Shown here one piece after another: positions 10,150 to 31,980 of a stretch of DNA of 64,000 nt. The notes beneath the pieces were generated by a model. It was not told the DNA's origin, searched no databases, and was given only the letters and a program-made list of their open reading frames with translations. Each line of letters begins with the position of its first letter. Within the stretch, counting starts at the first letter, position 1. Source of the DNA: a virus; IMG/VR virus record IMGVR_UViG_3300031963_011573, positions 42,061 to 106,060 of that record; one strand, 5' to 3'. The position numbers and the translations under genes were made by a program.

Positions 10150-10575
10150 ATGGTAAAATTATCTCAACTACTAAAAGAAATATATGCTGAACCTAATAAA
10201 TTTAATTATCCCCCATTAATTAAATCTCTTACAGAATATATGTTGGGAAAAGGAATGAATATTCGTCCTTTACCTAAAGTAAAATTTGTTGATGATGATA
10301 TTGAAAATTCCCAAAATTTCTTTGGAAAAACAGCATATTATAACCCGAATGAAAAATCAATAGTTTTATACACTTATGGGCGTCACCCAAAAGATATAAT
10401 GCGTTCGTTTGCTCATGAAATGATTCACCATGAACAAAATTGTGAAGGGCGTTTAGGTAATACTCCTACTACTAATATCAATGAAGATGATTATCTATAT
10501 GAATTAGAAAAAGAAGCTAATACATTAGGAACCATGATATTTAGAGAATGGACAGACAAAATAACAAATAATTAA
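10150..10575 (+). CDS. HExxH zinc-metalloprotease-like protein with LxxLLKE leader
   Basis: AHEMIHHEQ and downstream EKEA; N-terminus MVKLSQLLKE; promoter variant ATATGTATA at 10138. Confidence 0.65.
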   Translation: MVKLSQLLKEIYAEPNKFNYPPLIKSLTEYMLGKGMNIRPLPKVKFVDDDIENSQNFFGKTAYYNPNEKSIVLYTYGRHPKDIMRSFAHEMIHHEQNCEGRLGNTPTTNINEDDYLYELEKEANTLGTMIFREWTDKITNN

Positions 10576-10576
10576 T

Positions 10577-11149
10577 ATGTCAGATAACGTTTTAAAAAAA
10601 CAATTCCAAAAAAACGACGTAGAACGCCTACGTAACCTTATTAAAGGTAAACACGGTGACCGAACCACAGTAGGAATTGGTTATAACGGAGAAATAATAG
10701 AAGACCATAAAGAAGGTGATATTTGGGAACAAGGAGGTAAAACTTGGACTATTCGAGATGGAATTAAAGAAAATATCACTAAACTAGATAAATTTAAAAA
10801 AGTAGCAGTTCCTTTATTTTGCCCTGATTGCAAACAAATTATGGATAAACAATTAGATCCACATTATTTTAAATCATATGGTCATTGTCTAGATTGTAGA
10901 ACAAAATTTGAAACTCAACTTAAACTAGAAGGCAAATGGGAGGAATACACTAATTCTACATTCAATGCCGAAATAGATAAACAAATAGAAGAATATAAAG
11001 GTTATTTTGAATCACTCCTTTCAGAAGGAAACCAAGACTATGTTTCCGAAAATGGTGAAATTCAAAAATGGGTTGGTGGAATAGATAAAGAGCGTGCTCA
11101 AAACGCTTTAGATGAGATGGTTAAACACTTAAATTCTTTAAAAAAATAA
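10577..11149 (+). CDS. Hypothetical protein with Zn finger
   Basis: CPDC...CLDC. Confidence 0.55.
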   Translation: MSDNVLKKQFQKNDVERLRNLIKGKHGDRTTVGIGYNGEIIEDHKEGDIWEQGGKTWTIRDGIKENITKLDKFKKVAVPLFCPDCKQIMDKQLDPHYFKSYGHCLDCRTKFETQLKLEGKWEEYTNSTFNAEIDKQIEEYKGYFESLLSEGNQDYVSENGEIQKWVGGIDKERAQNALDEMVKHLNSLKK

Positions 11150-11772: not shown

Positions 11773-11774
11773 AA

Positions 11775-12314
11775 ATGGACAATTTTGACTTAAAAAAATT
11801 CTTAAAAGAAAGTAAAGCTCTAGAGAATTTAAACCCTATACTAAAAAAAGAAAACCTTAGTGAAGGTAACATGCGTGGTAAAATCCGCGAAATGATTTTA
11901 GCTGAATTGGGAAACCCAGATGACTATGATTATGATCCAAATGATGATTACGGGGATGATGAATCTAGTTATTTTCCTCATATGCAAGGTTTAGAAGATG
12001 AACCTGAAAGTGAATTAGAGGAAGCTAAAAAGAAAAAAGACGAAGAAGTAGAAGATGTTGAAACAACTGATACTGAAACAACTGATACAACTGAAGAAAT
12101 GCCTGCTGAGGAAGCGCCTGCTGAAGATGCACCTGCTGATGGAGGTGGTTTAGAAGATGTAGCTGCAAACATGGAAGGTACTGAAGGTGAATTAATGGAC
12201 CATTTAATGAGTGCATTTAAAATTGCTAAAGGTATGAACAATGAAAAACTTGAAACACAAGTTGGAAACACACTTAAATTTTTCGTTAGCGAATATATTG
12301 GTGGAGGAGAATAG
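11775..12314 (+). CDS. Acidic hypothetical protein, putative internal head protein
   Basis: Start better placed at ATG 11775 (after the upstream stop and ATATTTATA at 11745); MDNFDLKKFLKE leader shared with 19353. Confidence 0.65.
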   Translation: MDNFDLKKFLKESKALENLNPILKKENLSEGNMRGKIREMILAELGNPDDYDYDPNDDYGDDESSYFPHMQGLEDEPESELEEAKKKKDEEVEDVETTDTETTDTTEEMPAEEAPAEDAPADGGGLEDVAANMEGTEGELMDHLMSAFKIAKGMNNEKLETQVGNTLKFFVSEYIGGGE

Positions 12315-12345
12315 TAATTAATTAAATCTATATAAAATAAAATCT

Positions 12346-12519
12346 ATGAACACAACAGAAATTTTAGAAGCAATCAAAGTTGCTGTAGCTGATTTAGAGG
12401 CAAACCATGCTAAATCTTCAAAAGCAGCTCGTGGTAGAGCACGTAGTGCAGCTAACACAATTAAAAAACTAGCAGCTGAATTTAAAAAGACTTCAACTGC
12501 AGAAGACAAAGAAGCATAA
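12346..12519 (+). CDS. Histone H1-like (Hc1-type) small DNA-binding protein, 57 aa
   Basis: Below the ORF-track cutoff. MNTTEILEAIKVAVADLEANHAKSSKAARGRARSAANTIKKLAAEFKKTSTAEDKEA; KAAxxRAR...EFKK.S pattern; A-rich leader. Confidence 0.7.
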   Translation: MNTTEILEAIKVAVADLEANHAKSSKAARGRARSAANTIKKLAAEFKKTSTAEDKEA

Positions 12520-12520
12520 A

Positions 12521-13402
12521 ATGCAAAAAAAAAGAACCGAAAATTCAATTGAAAAATCCAACGGAACTTCCGTTGGATCTTTTGGTTCTTTAACTGAAGG
12601 ATTTATCCCAACACCTGAACAATCAAAGGAAATAGTAGATAAATTCAAATCCATTATCAACACTCGTTTAGATAAACTATATGATACTAGAGGAGCAGAT
12701 GGAGAATTATACGCTTATGGCATTGCTGTTAATCAAGTAAAGAAAAAAGCAGAATCGGGTGCTGAAACACCTGAAGAAACACCAACAGAAGAACCAATGG
12801 ATAAAGAAACTAAATTAAAAGAAATGATTCAAGCGGCTTTATCTAAGCCTTTAAATGAAAAGAAAAAATCTTTCCCTGATTTGACAGGTGATGGTAAAGT
12901 AACTCAAGCTGATATTTTAAAAGCACGAGGGGTTGAATTAGAGGAAGACCTTGATTTAGGTCACCAAGATGATGAACCACACATGCTTAAATCTGATTTA
13001 TATGATATTGGGAAATATGCTATAGAACTTTATAAAATAGTTGATCAATTTGAAGGTGAACAAGAAGTTGATTTCCCACACTGGTGGCAAGCAAAAATTG
13101 TTAAAGCCAAAGAACTTATATCTTCAGCAAAACATTATCTTGAATTTGAGATAAAAGAACCTCAAATCGATGCTATGGTAGATGTAGTTTCTGAAGAAGA
13201 TGTAATTGATGAAAAATTAAAACCTTCTATGGGTGCAGGAGCATATGTTAAAGATTTTGAAAAATCTGAAGCACCTCAATTTAAAGGTAAATCTGAAAAG
13301 AAAAAACAAAAAATGGCGGTAGCTGCTTATCTGTCTGCTAAAGATAAAACTAAGAAAAAAATAAAAGAAGCTATTTTAGCTAAATTTAAAAATAAACAAT
13401 GA
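12521..13402 (+). CDS. Modular hypothetical protein, putative internal head polyprotein
   Basis: Modules separated by LTE/LNE/LEE/IDE; EF-hand-like DLTGDGKVTQAD; KSEAPQFKGKS module. Confidence 0.55.
   Translation: MQKKRTENSIEKSNGTSVGSFGSLTEGFIPTPEQSKEIVDKFKSIINTRLDKLYDTRGADGELYAYGIAVNQVKKKAESGAETPEETPTEEPMDKETKLKEMIQAALSKPLNEKKKSFPDLTGDGKVTQADILKARGVELEEDLDLGHQDDEPHMLKSDLYDIGKYAIELYKIVDQFEGEQEVDFPHWWQAKIVKAKELISSAKHYLEFEIKEPQIDAMVDVVSEEDVIDEKLKPSMGAGAYVKDFEKSEAPQFKGKSEKKKQKMAVAAYLSAKDKTKKKIKEAILAKFKNKQ
12531..12591 (+). terminator. Nested stem-loop after the histone-like gene (terminator/attenuator candidate)
   Basis: ATCCAACGGAA-C-TTCCGTTGGAT perfect inverted repeat inside an outer AAAGAACCGAAA/TTTTGGTTCTTT stem. 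Confidence 0.5.
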
Positions 13403-13863
13403 CCCGCAACCAACTAAAAGATAGAATTAGAAACCTAGTAAAACAATCATATTCCCAACAAACTATTACCCCAGAGGAAGCTGTTCAATATGATGAGTTA
13501 ACTAAATTTCCTGAACTGAAAAAAGTTATAGTTGATTTATTGACAAACGAATATGATAATTTTTTGGAATCTATTGATTGGGTTGCTCCACGTCCTACTA
13601 CATTTAGAATTAACTTAAAAAACGGACAAGAATTTTATCTAATTTATGGTAAACGCAGTTGGATTGCCCAAATAGAAGGCAAAAAATATTATCTAAAAAA
13701 CCTCCCAGAAGAACAACGTGCGGCAGAATCTATAGCTCAAATTTTGAGATATGGAACCCCTGAGAAAAAATCTGAAGAAGAATTTGAACCAGAAGCTGGA
13801 GCAGAAACTCCACCTGCTGAAGAAACACCACCAGCTGAAGAAACACCACCAACAGAAGCATAA
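13399..13863 (+). CDS. Hypothetical protein with ETPPAE C-terminal repeat
   Basis: ORF coupled to neighbours; 18-nt repeat x3 near 13804-13857. Confidence 0.6.
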   Translation: MTRNQLKDRIRNLVKQSYSQQTITPEEAVQYDELTKFPELKKVIVDLLTNEYDNFLESIDWVAPRPTTFRINLKNGQEFYLIYGKRSWIAQIEGKKYYLKNLPEEQRAAESIAQILRYGTPEKKSEEEFEPEAGAETPPAEETPPAEETPPTEA

Positions 13864-14750
13864 TGGATATTTTAGAAAAATTTTTAAATAGTATAGCTTA
13901 CAAGTTTCCTAAAGGATATCCTGATATGAAGGATCCTAACGATGTTGAATTGCTTCATAAGTTATTAAATGAAGTAATTGATTTAGAAGAATTAAAAACC
14001 AAACCTCATTGGGATGAACGAATTAAGGAAAGAGGTACTATATTAGATATAATTAGTTTTCCTAAAGATTATCCTTTATCTAAACAAGAAGTTATTAAAC
14101 AAATTGAAGATGAACTTAATAGGAGAGCTATCAATTTAGAAAAACTTAAAGAAGTTCCATTATCTCTTCCATATAAAATAGGATACAAATTATTCAAACC
14201 ACTACTTAATTATAACGGGAAAAATATATCTCTTGATTTAAAAGTTGAATATACTGTTAAAGGTATTAAAAAAATAGGAATAGGGAACTCATTTGTGGCT
14301 GTAATAAATAATGATACATTAATTACTTTACTATTATTACCAAGTGATGATAATCCTACTATAGAATTATCTTTAGAAAAGCACGAAGAAAGAGAATATG
14401 GAAAACCTAAACCAATAAAAATAATTTCTTCAAGTAATTATGAATTTATCATTACTCCTAAACCAGAAAGCTCTCAATTAATTAAAATTACAGATCTACC
14501 ATATAAAGTAAAAACTTCATATCGTCCTGGAACAACTTTTACTCATGACAAATATGGAACTGGAACTATTATAGCAGCAGCCTCCGCTGGGACTAGATCA
14601 GGTGAGCCTGATAGTAGAGGAATAGTCGATTGGGTTGAAGTAGATTTTGGTAAACCATATGTTTTAGGCGGGCAATTTAAAAAAACAAGAACTATAAAAG
14701 ACGTATATACTTCAATTTCTCCTGACTTAGACTCCCCAGCAGCTGAATAA
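13863..14750 (+). CDS. Hypothetical protein with C-terminal Tudor/SH3-like domain
   Basis: PGTTFTHDKYGTGTII...VEVDF; N-terminal FPKGYPD...LLNE leader. Confidence 0.5.
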   Translation: MDILEKFLNSIAYKFPKGYPDMKDPNDVELLHKLLNEVIDLEELKTKPHWDERIKERGTILDIISFPKDYPLSKQEVIKQIEDELNRRAINLEKLKEVPLSLPYKIGYKLFKPLLNYNGKNISLDLKVEYTVKGIKKIGIGNSFVAVINNDTLITLLLLPSDDNPTIELSLEKHEEREYGKPKPIKIISSSNYEFIITPKPESSQLIKITDLPYKVKTSYRPGTTFTHDKYGTGTIIAAASAGTRSGEPDSRGIVDWVEVDFGKPYVLGGQFKKTRTIKDVYTSISPDLDSPAAE

Positions 14751-14753
14751 GTA

Positions 14754-16429: not shown

Positions 16430-16888
16430 ATGATTAAATTAATTAATTTACTCAAAGAAATTACTGGGTTCTCAAATTGGAAAATACCTTCCTCGTCTCA
16501 ACTTAAACAAGAGTTTAAGATAGAACAAGAAATGAAGGGTAATGAATTTTGGGAAGATGAAGAAGCTTTTTTAAATGCTGTTAAAAACGGTAAAATTGTA
16601 ACTGTTACTCCTTCTGAAGATCAAGATATAGATTATAGAAGCGGAACCGAATCATATGAAGAACTTTTAGGTCTTATTAAATCATATCGATCATATCCTG
16701 AATTTAGAAATGAAAAAACATTGCAATCTATTTATGATGGATTTAAAAATAATTCTCCTATGGATTTACCGATAATTATAGAAGACGATAACGGGTATAG
16801 AAGAATTTTTTCTGGGAATACAAGAATGGATATAGCTTTTCAATTAGGTATAAACCCGAAAGTATTACTCATTAAAGGAGATTTATGA
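16430..16888 (+). CDS. ParB/Srx-like domain protein with LxxLLKE leader
   Basis: PIIIEDDNGYRRIFSGNTRMDIAFQLG; MIKLINLLKE; late motif at 16413. Confidence 0.55.
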   Translation: MIKLINLLKEITGFSNWKIPSSSQLKQEFKIEQEMKGNEFWEDEEAFLNAVKNGKIVTVTPSEDQDIDYRSGTESYEELLGLIKSYRSYPEFRNEKTLQSIYDGFKNNSPMDLPIIIEDDNGYRRIFSGNTRMDIAFQLGINPKVLLIKGDL

Positions 16889-17454
16889 TTAGATTAGTAG
16901 ATTTATTAAAAGAAATAAACGAGGCCAAACAAGTAGGAGACATCTATCATTTTACTGATACTGATACTATAACCTCTATGATCAAAGATTATGGAGGCAT
17001 AACCTTAGACCCTTCATTCTCTAGCTTTGCAGCAGATAAGTACTATTCCTTTACCAGAAACCCCAACTTAGGCACTCTTTCAGAAGAAAAACACCACGTT
17101 AGAATAAAACTTAATGGAGATAAAATGTCCAATAAATATAAATTTGAGCCATATGCTGATTTAGAAAGTGGTGAAGATTTATACTCTAAAAACGCTCCTA
17201 ATTATGAATCTGAAGAACGAATTAATTCTAAAAAATATGGAGAAATAAATTTAACTCCATATATTGAAGAAATAACTATCATTAGTCCTGATAGTTTTAA
17301 AGAATATCTTGAAAGTTATCATTCTGGTACTAAATATTATGATGAAATATTAAATGATTATAATTTTGTTTTAGATTGGATTAAATCTAAAAATATACCT
17401 CTTAAATTCTCCCAAGCTAGATCCACATCCTCCATTAGGAGAGCAGCTGAATAA
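16885..17454 (+). CDS. ADP-ribosyltransferase-like protein with LxxLLKE leader
   Basis: YHFT...YSFTR...ESEER order matches the ART core; MIRLVDLLKEINE. Confidence 0.45.
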   Translation: MIRLVDLLKEINEAKQVGDIYHFTDTDTITSMIKDYGGITLDPSFSSFAADKYYSFTRNPNLGTLSEEKHHVRIKLNGDKMSNKYKFEPYADLESGEDLYSKNAPNYESEERINSKKYGEINLTPYIEEITIISPDSFKEYLESYHSGTKYYDEILNDYNFVLDWIKSKNIPLKFSQARSTSSIRRAAE

Positions 17455-17465: not shown

Positions 17466-18575
17466 ATGGAACGTTTACGACAACTTATAAAAGAAGTACT
17501 TTCAACTCCACCTAAAAAAGATAGCTGTAATTGTGGTTGTCATGATTGTGATAATGTAGGTAATACTGGTGTAGTATTAAATGAAAGTTTAGTTAAAAAA
17601 GATATATTGTCGGAAAATCTGCGTTATCACGTGGATAATAAACTACCACTAACTGAAAACACATTCCGTTATGGTTCTCAAGCATTCCTTGATTTATGGT
17701 CGGAAGCTCGTTATTTATATTTACGTGAAATAATTCATGTAAATGATGATGATAAAGAAATTTTACTTGAAACTAATTTAGGTGAATATGGAATGTATGA
17801 AGGTAACAAAGTACCTTTAGATTTACCTATGTTAGAGGAAAACCAATACCAACCTATCTTAGAAGATATTAAGATGTATGGTAAAATATACGAGGCTGTA
17901 AATATAGAAAATTCCTACAAACTAGATGATATTAAATCAAACGAAGTAGGAAATGAATTTATTTTTACAGATAAACATGGTATTAAACGTAAATTGATGT
18001 TTTTAAGAGGAAATAGCGTTAAATTGTTATGGTTTAACCCCACCACTCAAGAATGGACAACAGACGATATTCCTAGTAAATATGAAGATGAAAAAGTAAT
18101 GAATACTTTTGGTATGTTATTAGTTAAAGTAATATTACCAAAATATGGTTCATTTAATTTTCAAGCTTTAAATGCCGCTCGTTACCGTTTATTTAGAGCA
18201 TTAATCTATAATAATTTAGACACTTCAAAATATGAAATGGATTATGACGATGAAAACAAATCAATTGAAGTTCATCAAATAGATACATTAACAGAAGAAG
18301 ATAAAAAGAAAACTCCACCAATTGGAAAACCAAAACGTGGTGGATCTAAAAAATTCTACGTTTATGTTAGAAATAAAGGTAAAGTTAAAAAAGTATCTTT
18401 TGGACAAGTAGGAATGTCTGCTAAAATAAATGACCCTAAAGCACGCAGAGCATTTGCTGCACGTCACGATTGTAAAAATAAAACAGATAGAACTAAACCT
18501 TCATATTGGAGTTGTAGGCTTCCAAGGTACGCATCTTTATTAGGTCTAAAAAGTTCTTTTAGCGGTTTCTGGTAA
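17466..18575 (+). CDS. Modular hypothetical protein, putative internal head polyprotein
   Basis: MERLRQLIKE leader; CNCGCHDC; C-terminal basic KKFYVYV...VSFG...ARHDC...YWSC module. Confidence 0.6.
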   Translation: MERLRQLIKEVLSTPPKKDSCNCGCHDCDNVGNTGVVLNESLVKKDILSENLRYHVDNKLPLTENTFRYGSQAFLDLWSEARYLYLREIIHVNDDDKEILLETNLGEYGMYEGNKVPLDLPMLEENQYQPILEDIKMYGKIYEAVNIENSYKLDDIKSNEVGNEFIFTDKHGIKRKLMFLRGNSVKLLWFNPTTQEWTTDDIPSKYEDEKVMNTFGMLLVKVILPKYGSFNFQALNAARYRLFRALIYNNLDTSKYEMDYDDENKSIEVHQIDTLTEEDKKKTPPIGKPKRGGSKKFYVYVRNKGKVKKVSFGQVGMSAKINDPKARRAFAARHDCKNKTDRTKPSYWSCRLPRYASLLGLKSSFSGFW

Positions 18576-18590: not shown

Positions 18591-18749
18591 ATGAAAAAAT
18601 CTGAATTAAAACAACTTATCAAAGAAGAAATTATCCAACAAAAACTTTTAGAGGAAAAAAATAAAAAAGCCTCTAAAATTAACCAGAATCTTTCAAATTT
18701 GATAGAAAAAATGAAAAAAGACTTCAATATAGAAGATGAGCGATTTTGA
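18591..18749 (+). CDS. Small protein MKKSELKQLIKEE..., 52 aa
   Basis: Not in the ORF track; ATG 18591 to TGA 18749; leader similar to 20046 and 23668. Confidence 0.6.
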   Translation: MKKSELKQLIKEEIIQQKLLEEKNKKASKINQNLSNLIEKMKKDFNIEDERF

Positions 18750-19352: not shown

Positions 19353-19793
19353 ATGGATAACTTTGATTTAAGAAAATATTTAGCTGAAGGTAAATTATAT
19401 GAAGCAGCTATGGCTTGTCCTTTACCTACCCAAGATTTAGAACTTAACACCAAAAATAGAGACTCAGCTATTAAAGCAGATTATATTAAATATGGTCCTT
19501 TAAATGTTGATGAACCTGGAGATTATTGGGACGAATTAGCAGAACATTGGGATACAACAGTTGAAGCTGCTAAACAATCTTTATGTGCAAATTGTGCAGC
19601 ATTTGATATTTCCCCAAGAATGGAAGATTGTATGCCTGGACCATTACAAGATGAAGATGGAAAATTAGGATATTGTTGGATGCATAGTTTTAAGTGCCAT
19701 TCAGCTCGTACTTGTAGGACATGGGCTAAAGGTGGTCCTATTACACAAGATAGTATATCTTATGATTGGCAAGAGCGTAAAGAAAGTGAGTAA
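19353..19793 (+). CDS. Cys-rich metal-binding hypothetical protein
   Basis: CANC...GYC...C...C..W; MDNFDLRKYLAE leader. Confidence 0.6.
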   Translation: MDNFDLRKYLAEGKLYEAAMACPLPTQDLELNTKNRDSAIKADYIKYGPLNVDEPGDYWDELAEHWDTTVEAAKQSLCANCAAFDISPRMEDCMPGPLQDEDGKLGYCWMHSFKCHSARTCRTWAKGGPITQDSISYDWQERKESE

Positions 19794-20049
19794 ACCATAC
19801 ATTGACATAGAAGTTACAGACAAATATATTATTCGTGAGTTTAACGAAAATATAGATCCAATTGAATTAAAATGGCATAGGGATTTAGAGAGTCGTACTG
19901 TTGAAATTTTAGAAGATACAGATTGGAAACTTCAATTAGATAATAGCTTGCCTACCTCACTAAAAGAACATATATTTATACCTGCATTAGAATGGCATCG
20001 TGTAATAAAAGGAACAGGAACATTAAAGTTAAAAATACATAAATTATGA
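19786..20049 (+). CDS. Cupin-like small protein
   Basis: WHRD...FIP..EWHRVIKG; start probably GTG 19786, overlapping the upstream stop. Confidence 0.6.
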   Translation: MSKPYIDIEVTDKYIIREFNENIDPIELKWHRDLESRTVEILEDTDWKLQLDNSLPTSLKEHIFIPALEWHRVIKGTGTLKLKIHKL

Positions 20050-20327
20050 AAAAAACTGATTTAAAAAATACAATCAAAGAGGAAATTAAAAAAGTATTAA
20101 TGGAGGAAACGAGTAGAACATCTATACCTCTTATCCGTGGAGCTCTTAATCAAATAGAAGAGAATGGTAAAATAGAAACTATGAATGCTATGCTTAGAAA
20201 TCTTACAGATGAAGAAGCTAGACAATTCAATTTACTTGTTCAAAAAGGAATAGGAAAAGAAATTAAAAGGATCCCAACTAATTCCCCAGCAGCTGATCCT
20301 CGTTTAACCCCAGGAACAACAGATTAA
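20046..20327 (+). CDS. Small hypothetical protein with MKKTDLKNTIKEE leader
   Basis: ORF track; leader motif. Confidence 0.6.
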   Translation: MKKTDLKNTIKEEIKKVLMEETSRTSIPLIRGALNQIEENGKIETMNAMLRNLTDEEARQFNLLVQKGIGKEIKRIPTNSPAADPRLTPGTTD

Positions 20328-23667: not shown

Positions 23668-24570
23668 ATGAAAAAAACTCGTTTACTTGAAATTATACGT
23701 GAAGAAATATCTAGTGCTCTAAGAGAAGGTGAAGCTGAAGAAAAAGCAGCTAAAGCGGCTGCACTTAAAGCTACTGATTTAGAAATTAAAGCTTTGCAAA
23801 AGAAAAAAGCTGACATGATGAGAACTGGTGTAGCTGAAGCTACACTTGAAGAAGATCTTTTAAATGAAACCCCAATCTATGATGTATCTGACATGGAAGG
23901 TTTTAAATCAGCTTTAGATAAATTTAGAGATGAGAATGTATCAAAAAGTAAAGCTCTTAATCTTTTATTAACTAAATTAGAAGATGAAGGTACAGTTGAT
24001 ACTAATCAATTAAGTAAAGATATGGGGGTTGATACAGCTGCATTCAATAACCAGGAAATTAGAAAATTTTTAAATCGCCCTGAAGATGAATTTTTTGAAA
24101 ATCCTAAAACTGGAGAAGAATTACTTGATTTTACACCATATTTAACTAAAGCAGATAAAAAAAGAGGTAGAGCAGCAGGCGAAAAAACAACTACTGAACC
24201 TAAAATATCAGCTAAATCAAAAAGCACAACATCAACAGGAACTAAAGAACCTAAAAAAGCTACTTTAACTAAAGGGGATGATGGATTTGATGATGTAACT
24301 TACTCTAAACCTGAAACAACTACTAAACCAAAAGCTACAGAAACGGACAAAGCAGATGCTGCTGCTTCTAAAACTCCTAAATTAGATAAATTAGCTAATA
24401 ACCAAGATGCTCTTTTAAAAGCTCAAAAAGAAACCCAAAGTAAAATGAAAGAACTAGCTGGTAAGATTAGAGGAGCTGAAGGGGCTGAAAGAGAAAATTT
24501 AATGGGCGAACTTAAAAAATTAAATAAATTAAATGGAGAAATTCAATCTAAATTGGATAAACTATTTTAA
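23668..24570 (+). CDS. Lys/Glu-rich protein, putative internal head protein
   Basis: MKKTRLLEIIREEI leader; LRE, LEE, LNE sites. Confidence 0.55.
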   Translation: MKKTRLLEIIREEISSALREGEAEEKAAKAAALKATDLEIKALQKKKADMMRTGVAEATLEEDLLNETPIYDVSDMEGFKSALDKFRDENVSKSKALNLLLTKLEDEGTVDTNQLSKDMGVDTAAFNNQEIRKFLNRPEDEFFENPKTGEELLDFTPYLTKADKKRGRAAGEKTTTEPKISAKSKSTTSTGTKEPKKATLTKGDDGFDDVTYSKPETTTKPKATETDKADAAASKTPKLDKLANNQDALLKAQKETQSKMKELAGKIRGAEGAERENLMGELKKLNKLNGEIQSKLDKLF

Positions 24571-24650: not shown

Positions 24651-25217
24651 ATGACTATAAAAACTAAAATAATACTCGGACTATCAGCTATATTAACAAT
24701 ATGTTTAATAGCATTATATGGTTTATTTAAATTGTATCAACATGAAAAAGAAGAAAGAAAACGATACAATAACAACATGATTGCTCTTGTAGAAGATAAA
24801 AGTAAACAACAATCACTCACGTTAAATGAACTTAAAAAGTTATACCCAAAATATGATTCTTTAGCTAAAGTGCTTAATATCAAAACTAAAAATATTACTG
24901 ATATAGTAGAAACTAGATACCGTTTTAAAGATTCTATTTTAACATCTACTATATTAAAAAAAGATAGTATATCTGAAAAAGCATATTTTGCATTAACTGA
25001 AAAATGTTATAAATTTTCGGGGTTTATTAAAAAAGATTCCATATCATTCACCAATAAAGAATTTAAAGATAATTTAACAACATTTTTATACAAAGATTGG
25101 GAGAAAAAATATTTATGGGGACTGTTAAAATTTAACCCATTTTATACTTCCAAAGTATATAGTGAATGCATGCAAGATACAATTGCAGTCATTAACAATA
25201 TAAAAATTAAAAAATAA
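24651..25217 (+). CDS. N-terminally membrane-anchored coiled-coil protein (spanin-like candidate)
   Basis: Start better placed at ATG 24651 after the terminator; TM segment IILGLSAILTICLIALYGLF followed by a coiled coil. Confidence 0.45.
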   Translation: MTIKTKIILGLSAILTICLIALYGLFKLYQHEKEERKRYNNNMIALVEDKSKQQSLTLNELKKLYPKYDSLAKVLNIKTKNITDIVETRYRFKDSILTSTILKKDSISEKAYFALTEKCYKFSGFIKKDSISFTNKEFKDNLTTFLYKDWEKKYLWGLLKFNPFYTSKVYSECMQDTIAVINNIKIKK

Positions 25218-26819: not shown

Positions 26820-28712
26820 ATGGCAGATACTAGATTATTCTCAAGATTAAAACGATTGTTTTCAACAGACGTAATCATTCGAAATGAAGGAGGTGAGTTG
26901 AAAGTAATGGATATTAATAAAATCCAACAATCAGGTGATTATGAAACAAATGCCTTAGTTGATAGATTTAACCGAATATACACTAACTCACATACCTCAA
27001 TTTATGGTTACCAAAGCAGCTTTAACTATCAAACTCTACGCCCCACTCTTTACTCAGAATATGATGCTATGGACACAGATGCTATCGTTGCCTCTGCGTT
27101 AGATATTTTAGCTGATGAATGTACTTTACGTAATGATATGGGTGAAGTACTCCAAATTAGAAGTTCAGACGAGGATGTTCAACGTGCTTTATATAATTTG
27201 TTCTATGATGTATTGAACGTTGAATTTAACTTATGGCCTTGGATTCGTAATATGTTGAAATACGGTGATTTCTTTTTAAAACTAGAAATTTCCGAAAAAT
27301 TTGGTGTATATAATGTAATTCCTTACAATGCATTTCATATTGAAAGACAAGACGGATATGATAAAGATCATCCAAATGATATAAGATTCAGATTTGATCC
27401 AGATGGAATTTCATCCCCATCAAATTATGGATACTATAACGTACCAAACTCTGCAAATCAATCAAACGATATATATTTTGACAATTACGAAATGGCTCAT
27501 TTCCGTTTATTAACGGACACTAACTTTTTACCTTATGGTAGATCATATCTTGAACCAGGCCGTAAGTTATTTAAGCAATATACGATGATGGAAGATGCGA
27601 TGTTAATTCACCGTATCGTTAGAGCACCTGAAAAACGTATATTCTCAATTAATGTTGGTAATATTGCTCCTGCTGAAGTAGAAAACTTTATGCAGAAAAC
27701 AATATCCAAAATGAAACGTACTCCATATATTGATCAACAAACAGGTGATTATAACTTAAAGTACAATATGCAAAACTTGCTTGAGGACTTTTACATCCCA
27801 GTTAGAGGAAACGATCAAGCAACCAAAATTGATACTTTAGGTGGTTTACAATACGATGGTATTACAGATGTAGAATATTTAAGAGACAAATTATTTGCTG
27901 CCCTTAAAGTTCCAAAAGCGTTTATGGGGTATGAAAAAGATTTAACTGGTAAGGCAACATTAGCTGCTGAAGACATTCGTTTTGCTCGTACAATTGAACG
28001 CATTCAACGTATTGTTGTATCTGAATTAACTAAAATTGCTCTAGTTCATTTATATACTCAAGGATACACTGATGAGAATTTAACTAATTTTGAACTTTCA
28101 TTAACTACACCTTCAATCATATATGACCAAGAAAGAGTAGCATTGATGAAAGAAAAAACAGAATTAGCTATCTCAATGATAGAAAATAAATTGATGCCTT
28201 CTGATTGGATATATGAAAATTTATTCCATTTAAGTGAAGATCAATACGATGAATATAGAGACTTGATTCTTCAAGATGCTAAACGTAAATTCCGTGTAAC
28301 TCAAATTGAAAACGAAGGTAATGATCCACTTGAAACAGGTAAATCTTACGGTACACCACATGATTTAGCTTCTTTATATGGAAGAGGAAGATATGAAGGC
28401 GAAGTACCTGAAGGATATGATGAAAAAGAACCATTAGGAAGACCAAAAGAAAAAGTAACAGATCGAAACACTCAAGATAGTGTTTTTGGAAAAGATAGAA
28501 TAGGAGCTATAGGAGCTAAAGTAGATGGAGATGAATCAAACTCAACTAAACCAGAATATAAAGGTGGATCTCCATTAGCACTTGAAACTAAAATTAAACG
28601 AAACAAAAATAGTAAAATGTTTAATAACATTAAAAATCAAAAGAAACAAATTATTTTTGAATCGGATATTAGAGGAAATTCATTGTTAGATGAATCACAA
28701 ATACGAGAGTAA
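26820..28712 (+). CDS. gp20: Portal protein (T4 gp20-like)
   Basis: MEDAMLIHRIVRAPEKRIF, EDFYIPVRG, IDTLGG, LFAALKVP. Confidence 0.95.
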   Translation: MADTRLFSRLKRLFSTDVIIRNEGGELKVMDINKIQQSGDYETNALVDRFNRIYTNSHTSIYGYQSSFNYQTLRPTLYSEYDAMDTDAIVASALDILADECTLRNDMGEVLQIRSSDEDVQRALYNLFYDVLNVEFNLWPWIRNMLKYGDFFLKLEISEKFGVYNVIPYNAFHIERQDGYDKDHPNDIRFRFDPDGISSPSNYGYYNVPNSANQSNDIYFDNYEMAHFRLLTDTNFLPYGRSYLEPGRKLFKQYTMMEDAMLIHRIVRAPEKRIFSINVGNIAPAEVENFMQKTISKMKRTPYIDQQTGDYNLKYNMQNLLEDFYIPVRGNDQATKIDTLGGLQYDGITDVEYLRDKLFAALKVPKAFMGYEKDLTGKATLAAEDIRFARTIERIQRIVVSELTKIALVHLYTQGYTDENLTNFELSLTTPSIIYDQERVALMKEKTELAISMIENKLMPSDWIYENLFHLSEDQYDEYRDLILQDAKRKFRVTQIENEGNDPLETGKSYGTPHDLASLYGRGRYEGEVPEGYDEKEPLGRPKEKVTDRNTQDSVFGKDRIGAIGAKVDGDESNSTKPEYKGGSPLALETKIKRNKNSKMFNNIKNQKKQIIFESDIRGNSLLDESQIRE

Positions 28713-28746
28713 CAAATTTTTATATATTTATAAATAAACAAACATT

Positions 28747-28854: not shown

Positions 28855-28857
28855 AAT

Positions 28858-29715
28858 ATGTTAATTCGTCATTCAAAATATAAAAATACGGGTATACTTT
28901 TTGAACTTTTAGTTCGTCAAATTACCACTGATACACTAGACGGTAAAGATTCCCCTGCAAAAGATATACTTAAAAAATATTTCGTTAAAACGGAATTGGG
29001 TCGTGAATATAGGTTATATGAAACGTTACTTAAAAAAACATCCCTTACAGAAACTAAAGCAAATATTGTAGTTTCTACTTTAACTGAATCATCTAAAAGT
29101 TTAAATAGAGGGGTAATTAAAAGACAAAAATATAATTTGATTAGTGAAATTCAAAAACATTATGATTTAAATGAATTTTTTAATCATAAACTTCCTAATT
29201 ACAAAGTATATGCTGCTTTTTATACATTGTTAGAAATTACCCATTCTCAAACCTCTATTAATCCTGAACAAACTATCACAAATAAAGTTACTATTTTAGA
29301 GCATTTAACAGCTGCTCAAATTAAAGAAAGTGCTGTTCGTGATGAAGTTTTAACAGAACTAGACAACTCAGATAAAGATGTTAAGTTTCTTGCATATAAA
29401 ATATTAATGGAGAAATTTAATAACAAATACGATGATTTAAGCCTAAACCAAAAAATCATCCTTAAAGAATACATCAATTCAGTAGATAATACATCTCGCT
29501 TAAAAGAATTTTACACAGATAAAATAAACGAGATTAAAGTTGAATTAAAAAAATTAAACAACAAAACAAACAACCCAGTTACAAAAATTAAAATTAACGA
29601 GATTATCTCTGTTATCAATCCACCAGCAAAAAATGCTAAAATAACAGATAATGATTTAGTTGATTTACTACAGTATTGTGATTTAATCAATGAATTAGAA
29701 ACTGTAAATGGATAA
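28858..29715 (+). CDS. Conserved head-module hypothetical protein
   Basis: HSKYKNTGILFELLVRQ; helical; between portal and protease. Confidence 0.65.
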   Translation: MLIRHSKYKNTGILFELLVRQITTDTLDGKDSPAKDILKKYFVKTELGREYRLYETLLKKTSLTETKANIVVSTLTESSKSLNRGVIKRQKYNLISEIQKHYDLNEFFNHKLPNYKVYAAFYTLLEITHSQTSINPEQTITNKVTILEHLTAAQIKESAVRDEVLTELDNSDKDVKFLAYKILMEKFNNKYDDLSLNQKIILKEYINSVDNTSRLKEFYTDKINEIKVELKKLNNKTNNPVTKIKINEIISVINPPAKNAKITDNDLVDLLQYCDLINELETVNG

Positions 29716-30163
29716 GTTAAAAGAAATAATCCGTAAAAAACTCAAAGAAATGAGTGCTACCAATGTTGGTGGTGCTACTGCTTCCCCTGGTGAAGGTATA
29801 GGAATGGCTACTAAACCCGCGTTTAATAAAAATAAAAACGCTAAAGGTGCTAAAAATATATACTATTACAAGTTAGGATTTAAAAATGTCCCAAACATTA
29901 AACCAAAATCTTACGATAAGAAAAAATTATGGGAAGAAGATAAAGAACCATCCGCAGCAAAAAAATTTCAAAACGAAAGAATTGACGAATTTACTCAAAT
30001 TGAAAATCTTTTAAAAGACTTATCCCCTCTTGTATCAAATGCTAAAAATGATACTTTAGAATACTACGCAGCTAACCCAGGTTCATTTGATATTTATAAA
30101 CCGTCTTCAATGGTTTTAGCATATATTCAAAAAGCAGTAGATTTATTAAAACAAAAACAATGA
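29708..30163 (+). CDS. Hypothetical protein, putative internal head protein
   Basis: MDKLKEIIRKKLKE leader; head module location. Confidence 0.55.
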   Translation: MDKLKEIIRKKLKEMSATNVGGATASPGEGIGMATKPAFNKNKNAKGAKNIYYYKLGFKNVPNIKPKSYDKKKLWEEDKEPSAAKKFQNERIDEFTQIENLLKDLSPLVSNAKNDTLEYYAANPGSFDIYKPSSMVLAYIQKAVDLLKQKQ

Positions 30164-31980
30164 AAAAAACATTACAAGATCAGTATTTATTAATCAAAGA
30201 AGGTAAAGGACATAAAGGTGTTTTTCTTACTGAAGCTAAACGTAATTTTCCTCATATAGTACCAAATTCTGCTACATTTGAGGAAGCAGCTGCATCTCTT
30301 AAAACTAAAAACATAATTTCAGAAAATGTGATTGGTTTGACTGCTGTTGCTGGATATGAGCCTAAGAAAAAAGAGTCATACGAAACTGCGTTTGAGGCAT
30401 TTTTAGTTGAAGCTAAAAAGAAAAAAGAAAATGAAGACGAGAAAGTAAAAGCAGAAGAGAAAAAAGTATCTAAACCTGTTGAAAAAGATCTTGAAAAACA
30501 ATACGATAAAATAGACGATAAAACCCCAGACAATTTGATCTTTGATCAAATTATGATGGGTTATTATGCTGAAATGAAAGATCCTAAAAATGCTGATAAA
30601 ACAATGCAACAATTGAAAGATATTGTGTTGAAAAACTTATCAAAAGATCCAATTCACTATACAAAAGATGGTCAATTTGGTGTAAAAGATTTAGGATATG
30701 TAACTGAACATCCTGGTTTAGGCACCCCAAAAGAAGCTACTGGAAAATACAAATCATCTGGATACGGTAATTTAAATGAAAATAAAGAACTTAACGTTGG
30801 TGATACTGTAAAATATAAAGGAATTAAAGTTACAGTAGAAAAAAAAGACGAAGTAGGTAATTTAGTATTGAAATCTGAAAGTGGTAAAACAATTAGAGCA
30901 AATAAAGCACAATTTAAAGAATATGGTTCTTTAGAAGAAGAAAAACTTCGTAAAGCTATCCGTGAAATGATTGATGCTGAGTTAGAAGAAGTTAAAGGTG
31001 GTGGCAATTATGGAATGATGACCATCAACACTGCTAATATTGAAAAAGGAGAACAAAAAATCCCAACATACTATATTTTAACATCCGAAGTTAGAAAAGA
31101 ATTTAACCTTTTAAATCCAGGCCTTAATGCTCCTTCATATGATGAATCATTAAAAATCCCTCATATCCGAATTACTCCTGACAATACTATCTTTATATCA
31201 GATTTACTTTATGTTACTTTAGGAGGAATGGAAAAAGGTAGAGGCACTAGAGAAAAACAAATTGAAGATAACAAAAACCGCCTTAAAGTTATCACTAATG
31301 AAATTTCAGATAGATATTGGCCAATGGTTAGAGCATTACTTAAAAAATATGCTGAATCAAAGACAACTATATACCCTGTACTAGGAAAAGATGTTTTATA
31401 CCATCAAATTAGATTTAAAGAAAATGGGTATAAAGTAGAAAAATTAGAAGATTGGATTGGGAAAAAAATAAAAGAAATTAATGCTAAACTAGCACAAGCA
31501 TCTTCTGGGGAAGTACGAAGAGGTCGTCCTATAAATGTTGAAGCTTTAATGAGATTTAAGAAGCAATTAGAAGATATGGAACCCAATGCTAAAGGTGGTG
31601 TAGCAATAATTCCTCCTCCGTTTCCGATGGGAGAATCTTTAATGGAAAGTGTAGAAAAAGATCTTGCCGCAATTAACAAAGAAGCAGAACATGAAACTTT
31701 ACAATCTAAATTAGATAAAATCCAAGAATTAATTGATAAAAAACAATCTCAACTTAGTAAACTTGATGAGGATGAAGATATGAAAGCTTTAACTGATACT
31801 AAGAAAGTTAAAGAAATTCAAAAAGATATCAAAGCTTTAGAAAAAGCAAAATCTAAAGTTGAAAAAATGATGTCTAAATTTAAAGGTAAAATTAAAAAAA
31901 CAGAAGTAATTGATGAAACAGACGACATGTTAGAAGACAACATAATGGGTGAAGAAATGTCATATGACGAAAATTACTAA
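30160..31980 (+). CDS. Large prohead-core-like modular protein
   Basis: Charged; modules bounded by LNE/LEE/LME; C-terminal coiled coil; immediately before the protease. Confidence 0.55.
   Translation: MKKTLQDQYLLIKEGKGHKGVFLTEAKRNFPHIVPNSATFEEAAASLKTKNIISENVIGLTAVAGYEPKKKESYETAFEAFLVEAKKKKENEDEKVKAEEKKVSKPVEKDLEKQYDKIDDKTPDNLIFDQIMMGYYAEMKDPKNADKTMQQLKDIVLKNLSKDPIHYTKDGQFGVKDLGYVTEHPGLGTPKEATGKYKSSGYGNLNENKELNVGDTVKYKGIKVTVEKKDEVGNLVLKSESGKTIRANKAQFKEYGSLEEEKLRKAIREMIDAELEEVKGGGNYGMMTINTANIEKGEQKIPTYYILTSEVRKEFNLLNPGLNAPSYDESLKIPHIRITPDNTIFISDLLYVTLGGMEKGRGTREKQIEDNKNRLKVITNEISDRYWPMVRALLKKYAESKTTIYPVLGKDVLYHQIRFKENGYKVEKLEDWIGKKIKEINAKLAQASSGEVRRGRPINVEALMRFKKQLEDMEPNAKGGVAIIPPPFPMGESLMESVEKDLAAINKEAEHETLQSKLDKIQELIDKKQSQLSKLDEDEDMKALTDTKKVKEIQKDIKALEKAKSKVEKMMSKFKGKIKKTEVIDETDDMLEDNIMGEEMSYDENY

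What the first reader, a model, noticed from the sequence alone, without database searches (positions are those of the whole stretch)
10150..30200. Shared N-terminal 'LxxL[LI][KR]E' leader on about 12 unrelated proteins: candidate capsid-targeting and cargo-injection system
Seen in sequence: MVKLSQLLKE (10150), MDNFDLKKFLKE (11775), MTRNQLKDRIR (13399, weaker), MIKLINLLKE (16430), MIRLVDLLKEINE (16885), MERLRQLIKE (17466), MKKSELKQLIKEE (18591), MDNFDLRKYLAE (19353), MKKTDLKNTIKEE (20046), MKKTRLLEIIREE (23668), MDKLKEIIRKKLKE (29708) and MKKTLQDQYLLIKE (30160). The protease (MNKQLLIE), scaffold (MATNREMLKE) and capsid (MSSINSLLE) begin similarly. The bodies behind the leaders are unrelated. 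Several of these genes follow the late motif, while interspersed enzymes (primase, phosphoesterase, glycosylase, oxidoreductase, kinase) lack the leader. Established: T4 internal proteins carry a short N-terminal capsid-targeting sequence removed by gp21, which cuts after (L/I)-X-E. Inference: a portable amphipathic tag loads diverse effectors into the prohead for release on maturation and delivery at infection.
Basis: partly seen in the sequence, partly recalled or inferred. Interest (0 to 1): 0.85.

Follow-up and report, generated by a model that had tools for sequence, protein, structure and literature searches.

The report
Capsid-targeting leader peptides, T4-like flavophage
A T4-type phage of flavobacteria puts the same 10-14-residue N-terminal peptide, which looks like its head-scaffold cleavage sites and like T4's known capsid-targeting sequence, on about ten unrelated proteins. 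These are most likely loaded into the head and trimmed by the head protease, which extends a system known from T4 to environmental phages, but this has not been tested at the bench.

Summary
The motif L-x-x-[LI]-[LI]-[KR]-E starts 7 proteins of this 106-kb phage contig, against 0.07-0.09 expected. Its only internal copy in 31,600 residues lies in the scaffold protein.

The head module is T4-type: gp20 portal, gp21-family S77 protease with a conserved His/Ser/Asp triad, and gp23 capsid protein. The conserved leader positions (hydrophobic 4, 7 and 8; Glu 10, or shifted by 2) match T4's IPIII capsid-targeting sequence and the gp24 propeptide. They end in the gp21 site (L/I)-x-E.

Eight genomes of the clade give 58 N-terminal against 18 internal copies, and 7 of the internal ones are in scaffold or core proteins. 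Four Bacteroidota phages without an S77 protease have none.

One protein body can carry different leader classes, or no leader, in different phages. Relatives hold variable tandem arrays of leader-bearing small genes. A second tag, RMQKLAGII, is the scaffold's C-terminal tail and sits at the termini of other proteins in relatives.

One leader-bearing protein has a DarT/Tpt1-like ADP-ribosyltransferase fold, which recalls T4 Alt.

Best reading (about 0.7): these are gp21-processed, scaffold-mimicking capsid-targeting propeptides. Packaging, cleavage and injection are inferred, not shown. It is a new variant of a known kind.

The parts
10150..10575 (+). Class I leader (MVKLSQLLKE, nt 10150-10179) followed by a minimal zincin-like HEMIHH domain
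   Evidence: Strict motif. AF2 model pLDDT 86.9, with the leader block at 66. Fold matches to SPRTN and IrrE/ImmA are weak. Homologues exist with the leader (141 aa), without it (129-130 aa), or as an inner domain of 565-907 aa enzymes.
11775..12314 (+). Class III leader (MDNFDLKKFLKE, nt 11775-11810) followed by an acidic low-complexity protein
   Evidence: The start lies directly after the stop at 11772. Orthologues in G001, G002 and G005 start the same way.
13399..13863 (+). Doubtful member (MTRNQLKDRIR)
   Evidence: It does not fit the motif. Its body matches residues 705-790 of an 841-aa immuto protein, which has SKSELKEIMLE just upstream.
16430..16888 (+). Class I leader (MIKLINLLKE) followed by a possible ParB/sulfiredoxin-like protein
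   Evidence: Strict motif, with TATTTATTA 8 nt upstream. The ParB/Srx assignment is only an ESM Atlas lead. It is fused to the next gene's body in P0044, with no second leader at the join.
16885..17454 (+). Class I leader (MIRLVDLLKE) followed by a DarT/Tpt1-like ADP-ribosyltransferase fold
   Evidence: AF2 pLDDT 78.2, with residues 1-14 below 50. Foldseek hits: Tpt1 7yw4 at E 1.7e-4, DarT at probability 0.8-0.95. Invariant YHFT, Y.SFTR and ExEERI. Homologues carry class I, class II, RMQMLAGIITE or other N-termini.
17466..18575 (+). Class I-like leader (MERLRQLIKE) followed by a Cys-rich N-terminal part and a basic C-terminal domain
   Evidence: Strict motif, with TATTTATTA 3 nt upstream. The leader is kept in 5 orthologues. 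The C-terminus matches phrog_7595.
18591..18749 (+). Class II leader (MKKSELKQLIKEE) on a 52-aa protein
   Evidence: Strict motif. No homologous body found.
19353..19793 (+). Class III leader (MDNFDLRKYLAE) followed by a Cys-rich protein
   Evidence: The same body in G001 starts MIKLLEILSEAE, so the leader class has been swapped.
20046..20327 (+). Class II leader (MKKTDLKNTIKEE) on a 93-aa protein
   Evidence: Relaxed motif.
23668..24570 (+). Class II leader (MKKTRLLEIIREE) followed by a fast-evolving Lys/Glu/Thr-rich protein
   Evidence: Exact TATTTATAA 16 nt upstream. In 16 orthologues the first 14 residues are mostly 81-94% conserved (mean 84% over the first ten), while much of the body falls to 3-25%.
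29708..30163 (+). Basic 151-aa protein between portal and protease, with leader MDKLKEIIRKKLKE (Glu 14); probably a prohead core protein
   Evidence: It occupies the position of T4 gp67/gp68. Its N-terminal 20 residues are its most conserved part.
30160..31980 (+). 606-aa putative core protein with leader MKKTLQDQYLLIKE (Glu 14) and an internal site KLRKAIRE (nt 30946-30966)
   Evidence: The leader is 97-100% conserved in 30 orthologues. The internal site fits the strict motif in relatives (KLRKIIRE).
31983..32615 (+). gp21-family prohead protease with N-terminus MNKQLLIE
   Evidence: Pfam Peptidase_S77 at 1.6e-26. PDB 5jbl (T4 gp21) at 2e-18. His, Ser and Asp align with T4 gp21, and the N-terminus aligns with T4's MNEPQLLIE.
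32804..34219 (+). Acidic scaffold protein carrying MATNREMLKE at the N-terminus, internal DLEELLAE (33089-33109) and LAELLRE (33368-33388), and the C-terminal tail RMQKLAGII (34190-34216)
   Evidence: It holds the only internal strict motif in the genome. That site is conserved in about 70 related loci. The C-terminal tail recurs at the termini of other proteins in relatives.
34245..35924 (+). gp23-type major capsid protein with N-terminus MSSINSLLE
   Evidence: Pfam Gp23 at 1.5e-73. The propeptide region aligns with that of T4 gp23.
26820..28712 (+). gp20-type portal protein
   Evidence: Pfam Portal_T4 at 1.2e-67.

Best explanation
The leaders are short N-terminal propeptides that address proteins to the assembling prohead core and are then cut off by the phage's gp21-family protease. 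This is how the capsid-targeting sequence (CTS) of T4 internal proteins, gp24 and Alt works.

The core of the tag is an amphipathic heptad: hydrophobic-x-x-hydrophobic-[L/I]-x-Glu. The first two hydrophobic residues would make the contact with the scaffold core. The last three residues form the protease site, with cleavage after Glu 10, 12 or 14.

The scaffold carries the same heptad at its N-terminus and at internal sites, so the tags work by imitating the scaffold.

Shown by sequence:
- the tag, its portability and its register;
- its restriction to this clade of S77-protease phages;
- its presence in scaffold, protease and capsid protein.

Inferred:
- binding to the core;
- cleavage;
- retention of the mature proteins in the DNA-filled head;
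- ejection into the host, where enzymes such as the DarT/Tpt1-like protein would act early.
For: 1. Enrichment. There are 7 N-terminal copies against 0.07-0.09 expected. Eight clade genomes give 58 N-terminal against 18 internal copies in 394,449 residues, with Glu at residue 12 (32 times), 10 (12 times) or 9 (5 times).

2. Location of internal copies. Seven of the 18 are in the scaffold or the 30160-type core protein. The scaffold site recurs in about 70 related loci.

3. T4-type head module. The protease is S77 with a conserved triad and a conserved LLIE N-terminus.

4. Match to T4. gp24 starts MAKINELLRE, IPII and IPIII start MKTYQEFIAE, gp22 starts MLKEQLIAE and gp21 has LLIE. Mutagenesis of the IPIII CTS put targeting at residues 4 and 7 and processing at residues 8 and 10 (PMC9026906). 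Class I leaders conserve exactly positions 4, 7, 8 and 10. gp21 cuts after I/L-x-E (PMC12991175, PMC5694885).

5. Profile within families. P7 Leu and P1 Glu are invariant or nearly so. P3 and P4 are L/I, though the search anchor partly imposes this. P2, P5, P6 and P8 vary freely.

6. Portability. The same body carries class I, II or III or other N-termini, or none. In a fusion of two tagged genes only the first tag is kept. The leader is the best-conserved part of fast-evolving proteins.

7. Specificity. No copies occur in four Bacteroidota phages without S77 that have similar GC content. Of 26 IMG/VR contigs of at least 30 kb that carry a class II leader pattern, 18 encode S77 on the same contig; all 5 that are at least 55% complete do so.

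8. Variable arrays. Tandem arrays of 2-11 leader-bearing small genes sit at a fixed locus in relatives, like the T-even IP loci (PMC3012670).

9. Second tag. The scaffold tail RMQKLAGII is reused at protein termini in relatives.

10. Structure. The leader is detached or of low confidence in AF2 models.

11. Cargo type. One tagged protein has an ADP-ribosyltransferase fold, and T4 Alt is a packaged ADP-ribosyltransferase (PMC5694885).

12. Timing. Late-type promoter motifs lie directly upstream of several tagged genes.
Against: - There is no virion proteome or N-terminal sequencing for any member of the clade, so packaging, cleavage and ejection are unproven.
- Many tagged genes lie among replication and repair genes, not in the head module. 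Only some have the late-type motif.
- Some tagged bodies in relatives are ordinary metabolic enzymes (P-loop kinase, nucleotidyltransferase, HAD nucleotidase) with no known need to be in the virion.
- The nucleotidyltransferase-zincin fusion also occurs without a leader in other S77 phages.
- The leaders are not homologous to T4's MKTYQEFIAE; the likeness is one of pattern only.
- More distant S77 phages (Mel-JY01, RM378, Colly) lack this motif.
- Look-alikes that are surely not tags exist, such as the TerL N-terminus.
- The motif was defined post hoc.
Confidence: 0.7

Rival explanations
1. The leaders are protease-removable propeptides that keep the proteins inactive, or time their activation to late infection. 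The S77 protease cuts them, but the proteins are not packaged as cargo or injected.
For: The P3-P1 part fits the gp21 site. T4 gp21 can cut a cytoplasmic host protein outside the head (PMC12991175). Several bodies are enzymes that could be harmful if active early.
Against: This does not explain why the positions upstream of the cleavage site (P7, P4) are as conserved as in the T4 targeting determinants. It does not explain why the scaffold tail RMQKLAGII, which is not a protease site, is also reused at termini. It does not explain the hypervariable arrays of tiny tagged proteins. In the AF2 models the leader does not pack onto the body.
Confidence: 0.12
2. The leader is a general N-terminal amphipathic helix with some other role: oligomerisation, binding to a phage chaperone or another hub protein, or a membrane contact. 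Its likeness to scaffold sites reflects shared Leu/Lys/Glu helix composition.
For: The heptad is a plain amphipathic helix. Immuto-type phages encode GroEL/GroES. One tagged gene (6.3 kb upstream of the window) lies next to baseplate genes rather than head genes.
Against: Composition does not produce it: shuffles give 0.09, and four AT-rich Bacteroidota phages have none. Glu sits at a fixed residue. P1 Glu is invariant while P2 is free. The same ends occur on protease, scaffold and capsid protein, as in T4.
Confidence: 0.1
3. It is a DNA- or RNA-level gene-start cassette: a translation-initiation context in a host without Shine-Dalgarno pairing, or a recombination site that shuffles genes. The peptide would be a by-product.
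For: The phage uses short A-rich leaders without Shine-Dalgarno sequences. Promoter-like motifs abut many starts. Modular gene shuffling is evident.
Against: Conserved residues use varied synonymous codons, with 74-202 synonymous codon differences per leader class. Upstream sequences differ. The motif also occurs deep inside the scaffold gene. About 75 early genes of the same contig lack it.
Confidence: 0.04

Closest known systems
T4 capsid-targeting sequence of internal proteins IPI, IPII and IPIII (Mullaney and Black 1996; reviewed in PMC9026906 and PMC3012670)
   Same: Both are 10-19-residue N-terminal peptides on otherwise unrelated proteins, in a phage with a gp21 protease, and both end in (L/I)-x-E. 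Hydrophobic residues sit at positions 4, 7 and 8 and Glu at 10. The cargo genes are hypervariable and the tag is conserved. The tag resembles the scaffold N-terminus: T4 gp22 MLKEQLIAE against the CTS ending FIAE.
   Different: The consensus differs (LxxLL[KR]E against YQEFIAE), and there are at least three leader classes plus a separate scaffold-tail tag. There are more tagged genes per genome (4-14). The bodies are often enzymes of 140-370 aa with mixed pI, not only small basic proteins. The host phylum is Bacteroidota. There is no experimental proof.
T4 gp24 vertex-protein propeptide (MAKINELLRE)
   Same: It has nearly the same sequence pattern as the class I leaders (MIKLINLLKE), at the same length. 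gp21 removes it (PMC5694885).
   Different: gp24 is a capsid-shell paralogue. Here the tag sits on non-shell proteins, and no gp24 paralogue was found.
T4 Alt, a packaged and injected ADP-ribosyltransferase
   Same: It is an enzyme cargo with a short N-terminal propeptide cut by gp21 (ITE-6) (PMC5694885). Window gene 16885 has an ADP-ribosyltransferase-superfamily fold behind its leader.
   Different: Gene 16885 resembles the DarT/Tpt1 (H-Y-E) branch, not the Alt R-S-E type. It is 189 aa against 682 aa. Its activity and target are unknown.
Propeptide processing of head and ejection proteins in giant phages phiKZ, 201phi2-1 and SPN3US
   Same: A gp21-related protease cuts many head proteins after Glu in a short motif. 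Identical N-terminal stretches occur on diverged paralogues (PMC5694885).
   Different: Those motifs are (S/A/G)-x-E, the propeptides are often longer than 100 residues, and the substrates are mostly paralogue families rather than unrelated bodies.
Encapsulin cargo-loading peptides, and the coat-binding C-terminal helix of the P22 scaffold (from my own knowledge, not tested here)
   Same: A short terminal peptide suffices to place foreign proteins inside an HK97-fold shell. The RMQKLAGII tail of the scaffold, reused at the termini of other proteins, would work this way.
   Different: Binding of RMQKLAGII to the capsid protein is not shown. Encapsulins have no protease step and no ejection.

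Membership tests
T4-type CTS / gp21-processed propeptide system | The phage encodes a gp21-family (Peptidase_S77) prohead protease with the catalytic His, Ser and Asp | tested here: met
   Pfam PF03420 at 1.6e-26. PDB 5jbl at 2e-18. GELDHP, SSRG and FD..NPS.PD align with T4 gp21.
T4-type CTS / gp21-processed propeptide system | T4-type head module: gp20 portal, acidic scaffold and gp23 capsid protein next to the protease | tested here: met
   Portal_T4 at 1.2e-67 and Gp23 at 1.5e-73. The gene order is portal, core genes, protease, scaffold, capsid protein.
T4-type CTS / gp21-processed propeptide system | A short (10-19 aa) N-terminal peptide ending in (L/I)-x-Glu | tested here: met
   Glu lies at residue 9-14 in most cases. 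P3 is L/I (partly imposed by the search anchor), P2 is free, and P1 is Glu in 51 of 52 distinct leaders of two families.
T4-type CTS / gp21-processed propeptide system | Determinants at CTS positions 4 and 7 (targeting) and 8 and 10 (processing), as mapped in IPIII | tested here: met
   Class I leaders conserve Leu 4, Leu 7, Leu 8 and Glu 10. The mapping is taken from PMC9026906. This is agreement of pattern only, not of function.
T4-type CTS / gp21-processed propeptide system | The same tag on proteins with unrelated mature parts | tested here: met
   No BLASTP relation between the bodies. The relaxed leader pattern marks 46 body families in six genomes, including some look-alikes such as TerL.
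T4-type CTS / gp21-processed propeptide system | Sequence homology of the tag to T4's MKTYQEFIAE | tested here: not met
   Only the hydrophobic/Glu register is shared. The nearest T4 sequence is the gp24 propeptide MAKINELLRE.
T4-type CTS / gp21-processed propeptide system | The tag is cut off by the protease inside the prohead | not testable with these tools
   This needs N-terminal proteomics or an in vitro cleavage assay.
T4-type CTS / gp21-processed propeptide system | The mature proteins are present in virions and are ejected into the host | not testable with these tools
   No proteome for this clade was found in the held literature.
T-even internal proteins (IP) | Small, basic, DNA-associated proteins | tested here: not met
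   The bodies range from 52 to 606 aa. Array members in relatives have pI 4.4-9.4. Several bodies have enzyme folds.
ADP-ribosyltransferase superfamily, DarT/Tpt1 branch (gene 16885) | ADP-ribosyltransferase fold with conserved His, Tyr and Glu positions | tested here: inconclusive
   Foldseek: Tpt1 at E 1.7e-4, TM 0.44-0.64; DarT at probability 0.8-0.95 but E about 0.01. H22, Y53 and E108/E110/E111 are invariant. No Pfam hit. The residues were not superposed.
Zincin metallopeptidases (gene 10150) | HExxH plus a third ligand on a zincin fold | tested here: inconclusive
   HEMxH is invariant and a downstream Glu is conserved. Fold matches are weak only: SPRTN at E 0.056, IrrE and selecase. Pfam hits are below the cut-off.

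The most novel reading that the evidence does not exclude
This clade of environmental T4-type phages may run a modular protein-delivery system with several interchangeable address tags, all copied from its own scaffold. The tags are the N-terminal heptad classes I-III and the terminal RMQKLAGII tail. They would let almost any gene become an injected effector. The result would be a large, fast-turning repertoire of enzymes delivered with the DNA, including a DarT/Tpt1-like ADP-ribosyltransferase, a zincin, a ParB/Srx-like protein, kinases and NAD-related enzymes. That would be far broader than the T-even internal proteins.
Probability: 0.35. Interest if true: 0.8.

Novelty: new variant of a known kind. 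Interest (0 to 1): 0.62.

Why it matters
If confirmed, this would show that capsid targeting by a short propeptide is an old and general trait of gp21-protease phages, not a peculiarity of T-even coliphages.

It would give a simple sequence rule for listing the injected proteins of uncultured aquatic phages. Those proteins are the first phage products to meet host defences, and they include candidate counter-defence enzymes.

The tags could also be used to load foreign proteins into heads of flavobacterial phages, as the T4 CTS is used.

The reuse of the scaffold's own N-terminal, internal and C-terminal motifs suggests how such tags arise.

Tried and rejected
- **Megablast** of 24 kb against the phage collection found nothing.
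- **Pfam, PHROGs and PADLOC** gave no function for most leader proteins.
- **PDB sequence searches** of 10150 and 16430 gave only chance hits.
- **A generic pattern** (hydrophobic-xx-hydrophobic-[LIVFM]-x-E with Glu at residues 8-16) is too loose. It is enriched 2-4 fold in the clade and in T4, where it recovers IPII, IPIII, gp24 and Alt, but also in phage 11b, which lacks S77. I did not use it as evidence.
- **Leader presence against S77 presence.** I tested whether a leader on the nucleotidyltransferase-zincin fusions tracks the S77 protease. It does not separate them: leaderless forms occur in other S77 phages, and most contigs are small fragments.
- **Chance composition** is rejected by shuffles and by control phages.
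- **A DNA-level repeat** is rejected by synonymous variation.
- **Paralogy of the bodies** is rejected.
- **TerL** was dropped as a false positive.
- **A leader-scaffold complex** could not be modelled, because the tools fold single chains only.

Full report
**What the window is**

The window is bases 42061-106060 of a 106-kb IMG/VR viral contig, about 63% complete. It has 31% GC and no Shine-Dalgarno sequences, and almost all genes are on one strand. Its head module is of T4 type:
- large terminase at 25217;
- Portal_T4 at 26820;
- three unassigned genes;
- Peptidase_S77 (gp21 family) at 31983;
- an acidic scaffold at 32804;
- Gp23 capsid protein at 34245.

The protease matches the solved T4 gp21 structure (5jbl, E 2e-18). 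It keeps the catalytic His, Ser and Asp and the N-terminal LLIE. The nearest cultured relative is Flavobacterium phage vB_FspM_immuto, with 58% capsid-protein identity. Next come Microcystis phage Mel-JY01 and Rhodothermus phage RM378.

**Check of the observation**

All listed N-termini are present. The strict pattern L..[LI][LI][KR]E lies in the first 16 residues of 7 of 151 plus-strand ORFs of the whole contig, and once in the remaining ~30,000 residues. That gives 0.07 expected at N-termini (P 1e-12). Shuffling each N-terminus, or pooling all N-terminal residues, gives a mean of 0.07-0.09 and never more than 2. None of the ~75 early genes on the left of the contig has it.

The bodies are unrelated to each other. 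The interspersed primase, nuclease, glycosylase, oxidoreductase and kinase have no leader. Conservation is in the protein, not the DNA: conserved Leu, Ile, Arg and Glu use several synonymous codons, and the upstream sequences differ.

The leaders fall into classes:
- Class I: M-[IV]-[KR]-L-x-x-L-L-K-E, with Glu 10 (genes 10150, 16430, 16885, 17466).
- Class II: M-K-K-[ST]-x-L-x-x-[LI]-I-[KR]-E-E, with Glu 12 (genes 18591, 20046, 23668, and one gene 6.3 kb upstream of the window).
- Class III: M-D-N-F-D-L-K-K-[YF]-L-[AK]-E, with Glu 12 (genes 11775, 19353).
- Two longer leaders with Glu 14 (genes 29708, 30160).

Gene 13399 does not fit.

**The key result: where else the motif occurs**

The only internal strict copy in the contig is in the scaffold protein (EVDLAELLREIEE, residue 189). 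A near copy lies at residue 96. In 80 related loci fetched with the protease (81-96% identity), nearly all of the 84 internal copies are these scaffold sites. The rest lie in the 30160-type protein between portal and protease.

The scaffold also starts MATNREMLKE, the protease MNKQLLIE and the capsid protein MSSINSLLE. So the heptad marks exactly the set of proteins that gp21 cuts in T4, plus the N-termini of a dozen others.

**Comparison with T4, read from the T4 record**

The relevant T4 N-termini are:

| T4 protein | N-terminus |
|---|---|
| gp24 | MAKINELLRE |
| gp21 | MNEPQLLIE |
| gp22 | MLKEQLIAE |
| IPII, IPIII | MKTYQEFIAE |
| IPI | a 19-residue leader ending ITE |

The literature states the following:
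- T4 head proteins carry 10-20-residue N-terminal propeptides called capsid-targeting sequences.
- In IPIII, targeting depends mainly on residues 4 and 7, and processing on residues 8 and 10.
- gp21 cuts after Glu in I/L-x-E.
- T-even internal proteins are a diverse set sharing only the CTS (PMC9026906, PMC5694885, PMC3012670, PMC12991175).

Class I leaders conserve exactly positions 4, 7, 8 and 10. Classes II and III have the same heptad shifted by two residues.

Within two large families of homologues, P7 Leu and P1 Glu are invariant or nearly so, although the search anchor did not require them. P2, P5, P6 and P8 vary freely.

**Generality and specificity**

I fetched whole genomes of relatives: G001, G002, G003, G005, G015, G022 and immuto. 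Each has 4-13 N-terminal strict copies against 0.06-0.25 expected. The eight clade genomes together have 58 N-terminal and 18 internal copies in 394,449 residues. Seven of the internal copies are in scaffold or core proteins, and one is a mis-called start.

Four Bacteroidota phages without an S77 protease and with similar GC content (phi38:1, 11b, crAss001, phi14:2) have none in 397 ORFs. More distant S77 phages (Mel-JY01, RM378, Colly) have 0-1.

A degenerate DNA pattern for the class II leader hit 87 IMG/VR stretches. Of the 26 contigs of at least 30 kb, 18 encode S77 on the same contig, including all 5 that are at least 55% complete.

**Portability**

- The zincin-like body of 10150 exists with the leader (141 aa), without it (129-130 aa, starting at the body), and as an inner domain of 565-907-aa nucleotidyltransferase fusions.
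- Homologues of 16885 carry class I, class II (MKKLQLKQLIKEE), MNKETLRMQMLAGIITESEY, or the N-terminal module of window gene 13863.
- A natural fusion of 16430 and 16885 keeps only the first leader.
- The body of 19353 has a class III leader here and a class I-like leader in G001. Two G001 paralogues carry class III and class II leaders.
- In the 23668 family, the first 14 residues are mostly 81-94% conserved, while much of the body falls to 3-25%.
- Relatives have a locus, between a conserved 87-aa gene and the clamp-loader gene, that holds 2 to 11 small genes. Nearly every one starts with a class II, class III or related leader, and the bodies are unrelated. A late-type promoter motif stands at the head of the array. 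This is the pattern of the T-even IP loci. The locus is not on the present, incomplete contig.

**A second tag**

The scaffold ends in RMQKLAGII (window 34190-34216). The Mel-JY01 scaffold ends likewise. In relatives the same motif sits within 20 residues of the N-terminus of unrelated proteins (M..E.LRMQ.LAG[IV]ITE). It also forms the C-terminal end of the MKLTDILRE protein. Of 24 copies, 23 are terminal, and the control phages have none. Two different pieces of the scaffold have therefore been reused as terminal peptides on other proteins. That is hard to explain unless the peptides bring those proteins to where the scaffold goes.

**What the cargo may be**

- Gene 16885 folds confidently (pLDDT 78, pTM 0.75), with residues 1-14 below pLDDT 50. 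It matches tRNA 2'-phosphotransferase (Tpt1) and DarT, both in the ADP-ribosyltransferase superfamily, and has invariant His, Tyr and Glu-rich motifs. An ESM Atlas lead agrees. T4's Alt is a packaged, gp21-trimmed ADP-ribosyltransferase (PMC5694885).
- Gene 10150 is a minimal HEMxH zincin-like domain (model pLDDT 86.9). Its matches to SPRTN, IrrE/ImmA and selecase are weak.
- Gene 16430 may be ParB/Srx-like, on an Atlas lead only.
- Genes 29708 (basic) and 30160 sit where T4 has the core proteins gp67 and gp68.

**Timing**

TATTTATAA occurs 22 times in the window against 5.7 expected, and 18 copies are on the coding strand. It lies 3-16 nt before the starts of tail-fibre, baseplate and neck genes. 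It also lies before tagged genes 23668 and the one upstream of the window (exact), and before 10150, 16430 and 17466 (one mismatch). The other tagged genes follow these in the same operons. This fits late co-expression with the head genes, but expression was not measured.

**Verdict**

The best explanation (about 0.7) is a T4-like capsid-targeting and propeptide system in which the tags imitate scaffold motifs and end in the protease site. Delivery into the host is a further inference, which I put at about 0.45.

The rivals are protease-timed zymogens without packaging (0.12), another role for an amphipathic helix (0.10) and a nucleic-acid-level start cassette (0.04).

The principle has been known from T4 since the 1990s, and reviews already suggest that T4-like phages use it widely, so this is a new variant of a known kind. 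The new points are:
- the different consensus;
- the several interchangeable tag classes;
- the scaffold-tail tag;
- the number and enzymatic nature of the tagged proteins;
- the host group.

Another first-stage note on this genome (e1-6044979) made the same proposal from sequence alone. It is not independent evidence.

Noticed in passing
window 34190-34216 (scaffold C-terminus); G001, G002, G003, G005, G022, immuto: The scaffold's C-terminal tail RMQKLAGII recurs within 20 residues of the N-terminus of unrelated proteins in relatives, and at the C-terminus of the MKLTDILRE protein. It may be a second capsid-address tag. The Mel-JY01 scaffold has the same tail.
   Followed up: partly
window, e.g. 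6476, 22197, 23644, 37198, 51166, 53462, 55800, 59053, 60253, 62958: TATTTATAA occurs 22 times against 5.7 expected, and 18 copies are on the plus strand. It lies 3-16 nt before the start codons of structural genes. It is probably a late promoter giving almost leaderless mRNAs, and it recalls T4's TATAAATA. I did not look for a gp55-like factor.
   Followed up: partly
relatives: G003 53778-57943, G001 138667-140790, G002 58835-60179, G005 101792-103715: A hypervariable locus lies between a conserved 87-aa gene and the clamp-loader gene. It holds 2-11 small genes, nearly all with class II, class III or related leaders and unrelated bodies. It is absent from the present, incomplete contig.
   Followed up: partly
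window 13863-14750: The N-terminus MDILEKFLNSIAYKFPKGYPDM is a separate portable module. The same 22 residues head a homologue of gene 16885 in another metagenomic phage (P0031).
   Followed up: no
window 12521-13402 and 13399-13863; immuto 114006-116531: Two adjacent window genes match different parts of one 841-aa immuto protein. Likewise, 10150 matches the middle of the 907-aa immuto gp088. Genes are split or fused between relatives at leader positions.
   Followed up: partly
window 12346-12519: A 57-aa gene matches the chlamydial histone H1-like protein Hc1 (Pfam PF07432, E 1.9e-6). It may be a DNA-condensing protein in a phage.
   Followed up: no
window 16430-17454; proteins P0042-P0044: Natural fusions link the bodies of 16430 and 16885, and of 16885 and the 10150-type zincin domain. 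This suggests that the three tagged proteins act together.
   Followed up: no
window 25217-25260 (TerL N-terminus): MGQDLKQAIREEYIKC looks like a class II leader, but it is a conserved terminase helix present in all relatives. It is a false positive for any leader search.
   Followed up: yes
window 43395-44108 and 44144-44857: These are two tandem 237-aa paralogues with nearly identical N-termini (MATFITSKS[IV]GETI).
   Followed up: no
window 7974-8423: A SegE-type GIY-YIG homing endonuclease (Pfam, E 1e-24) lies between the tail-fibre genes and the primase.
   Followed up: no
T4 record NC_000866, minus strand, ORF at about 18966: A 54-aa T4 ORF starts MKTFKEFIKE, which is very like the IPI and IPIII capsid-targeting sequences. 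I did not check whether this is already described.
   Followed up: no
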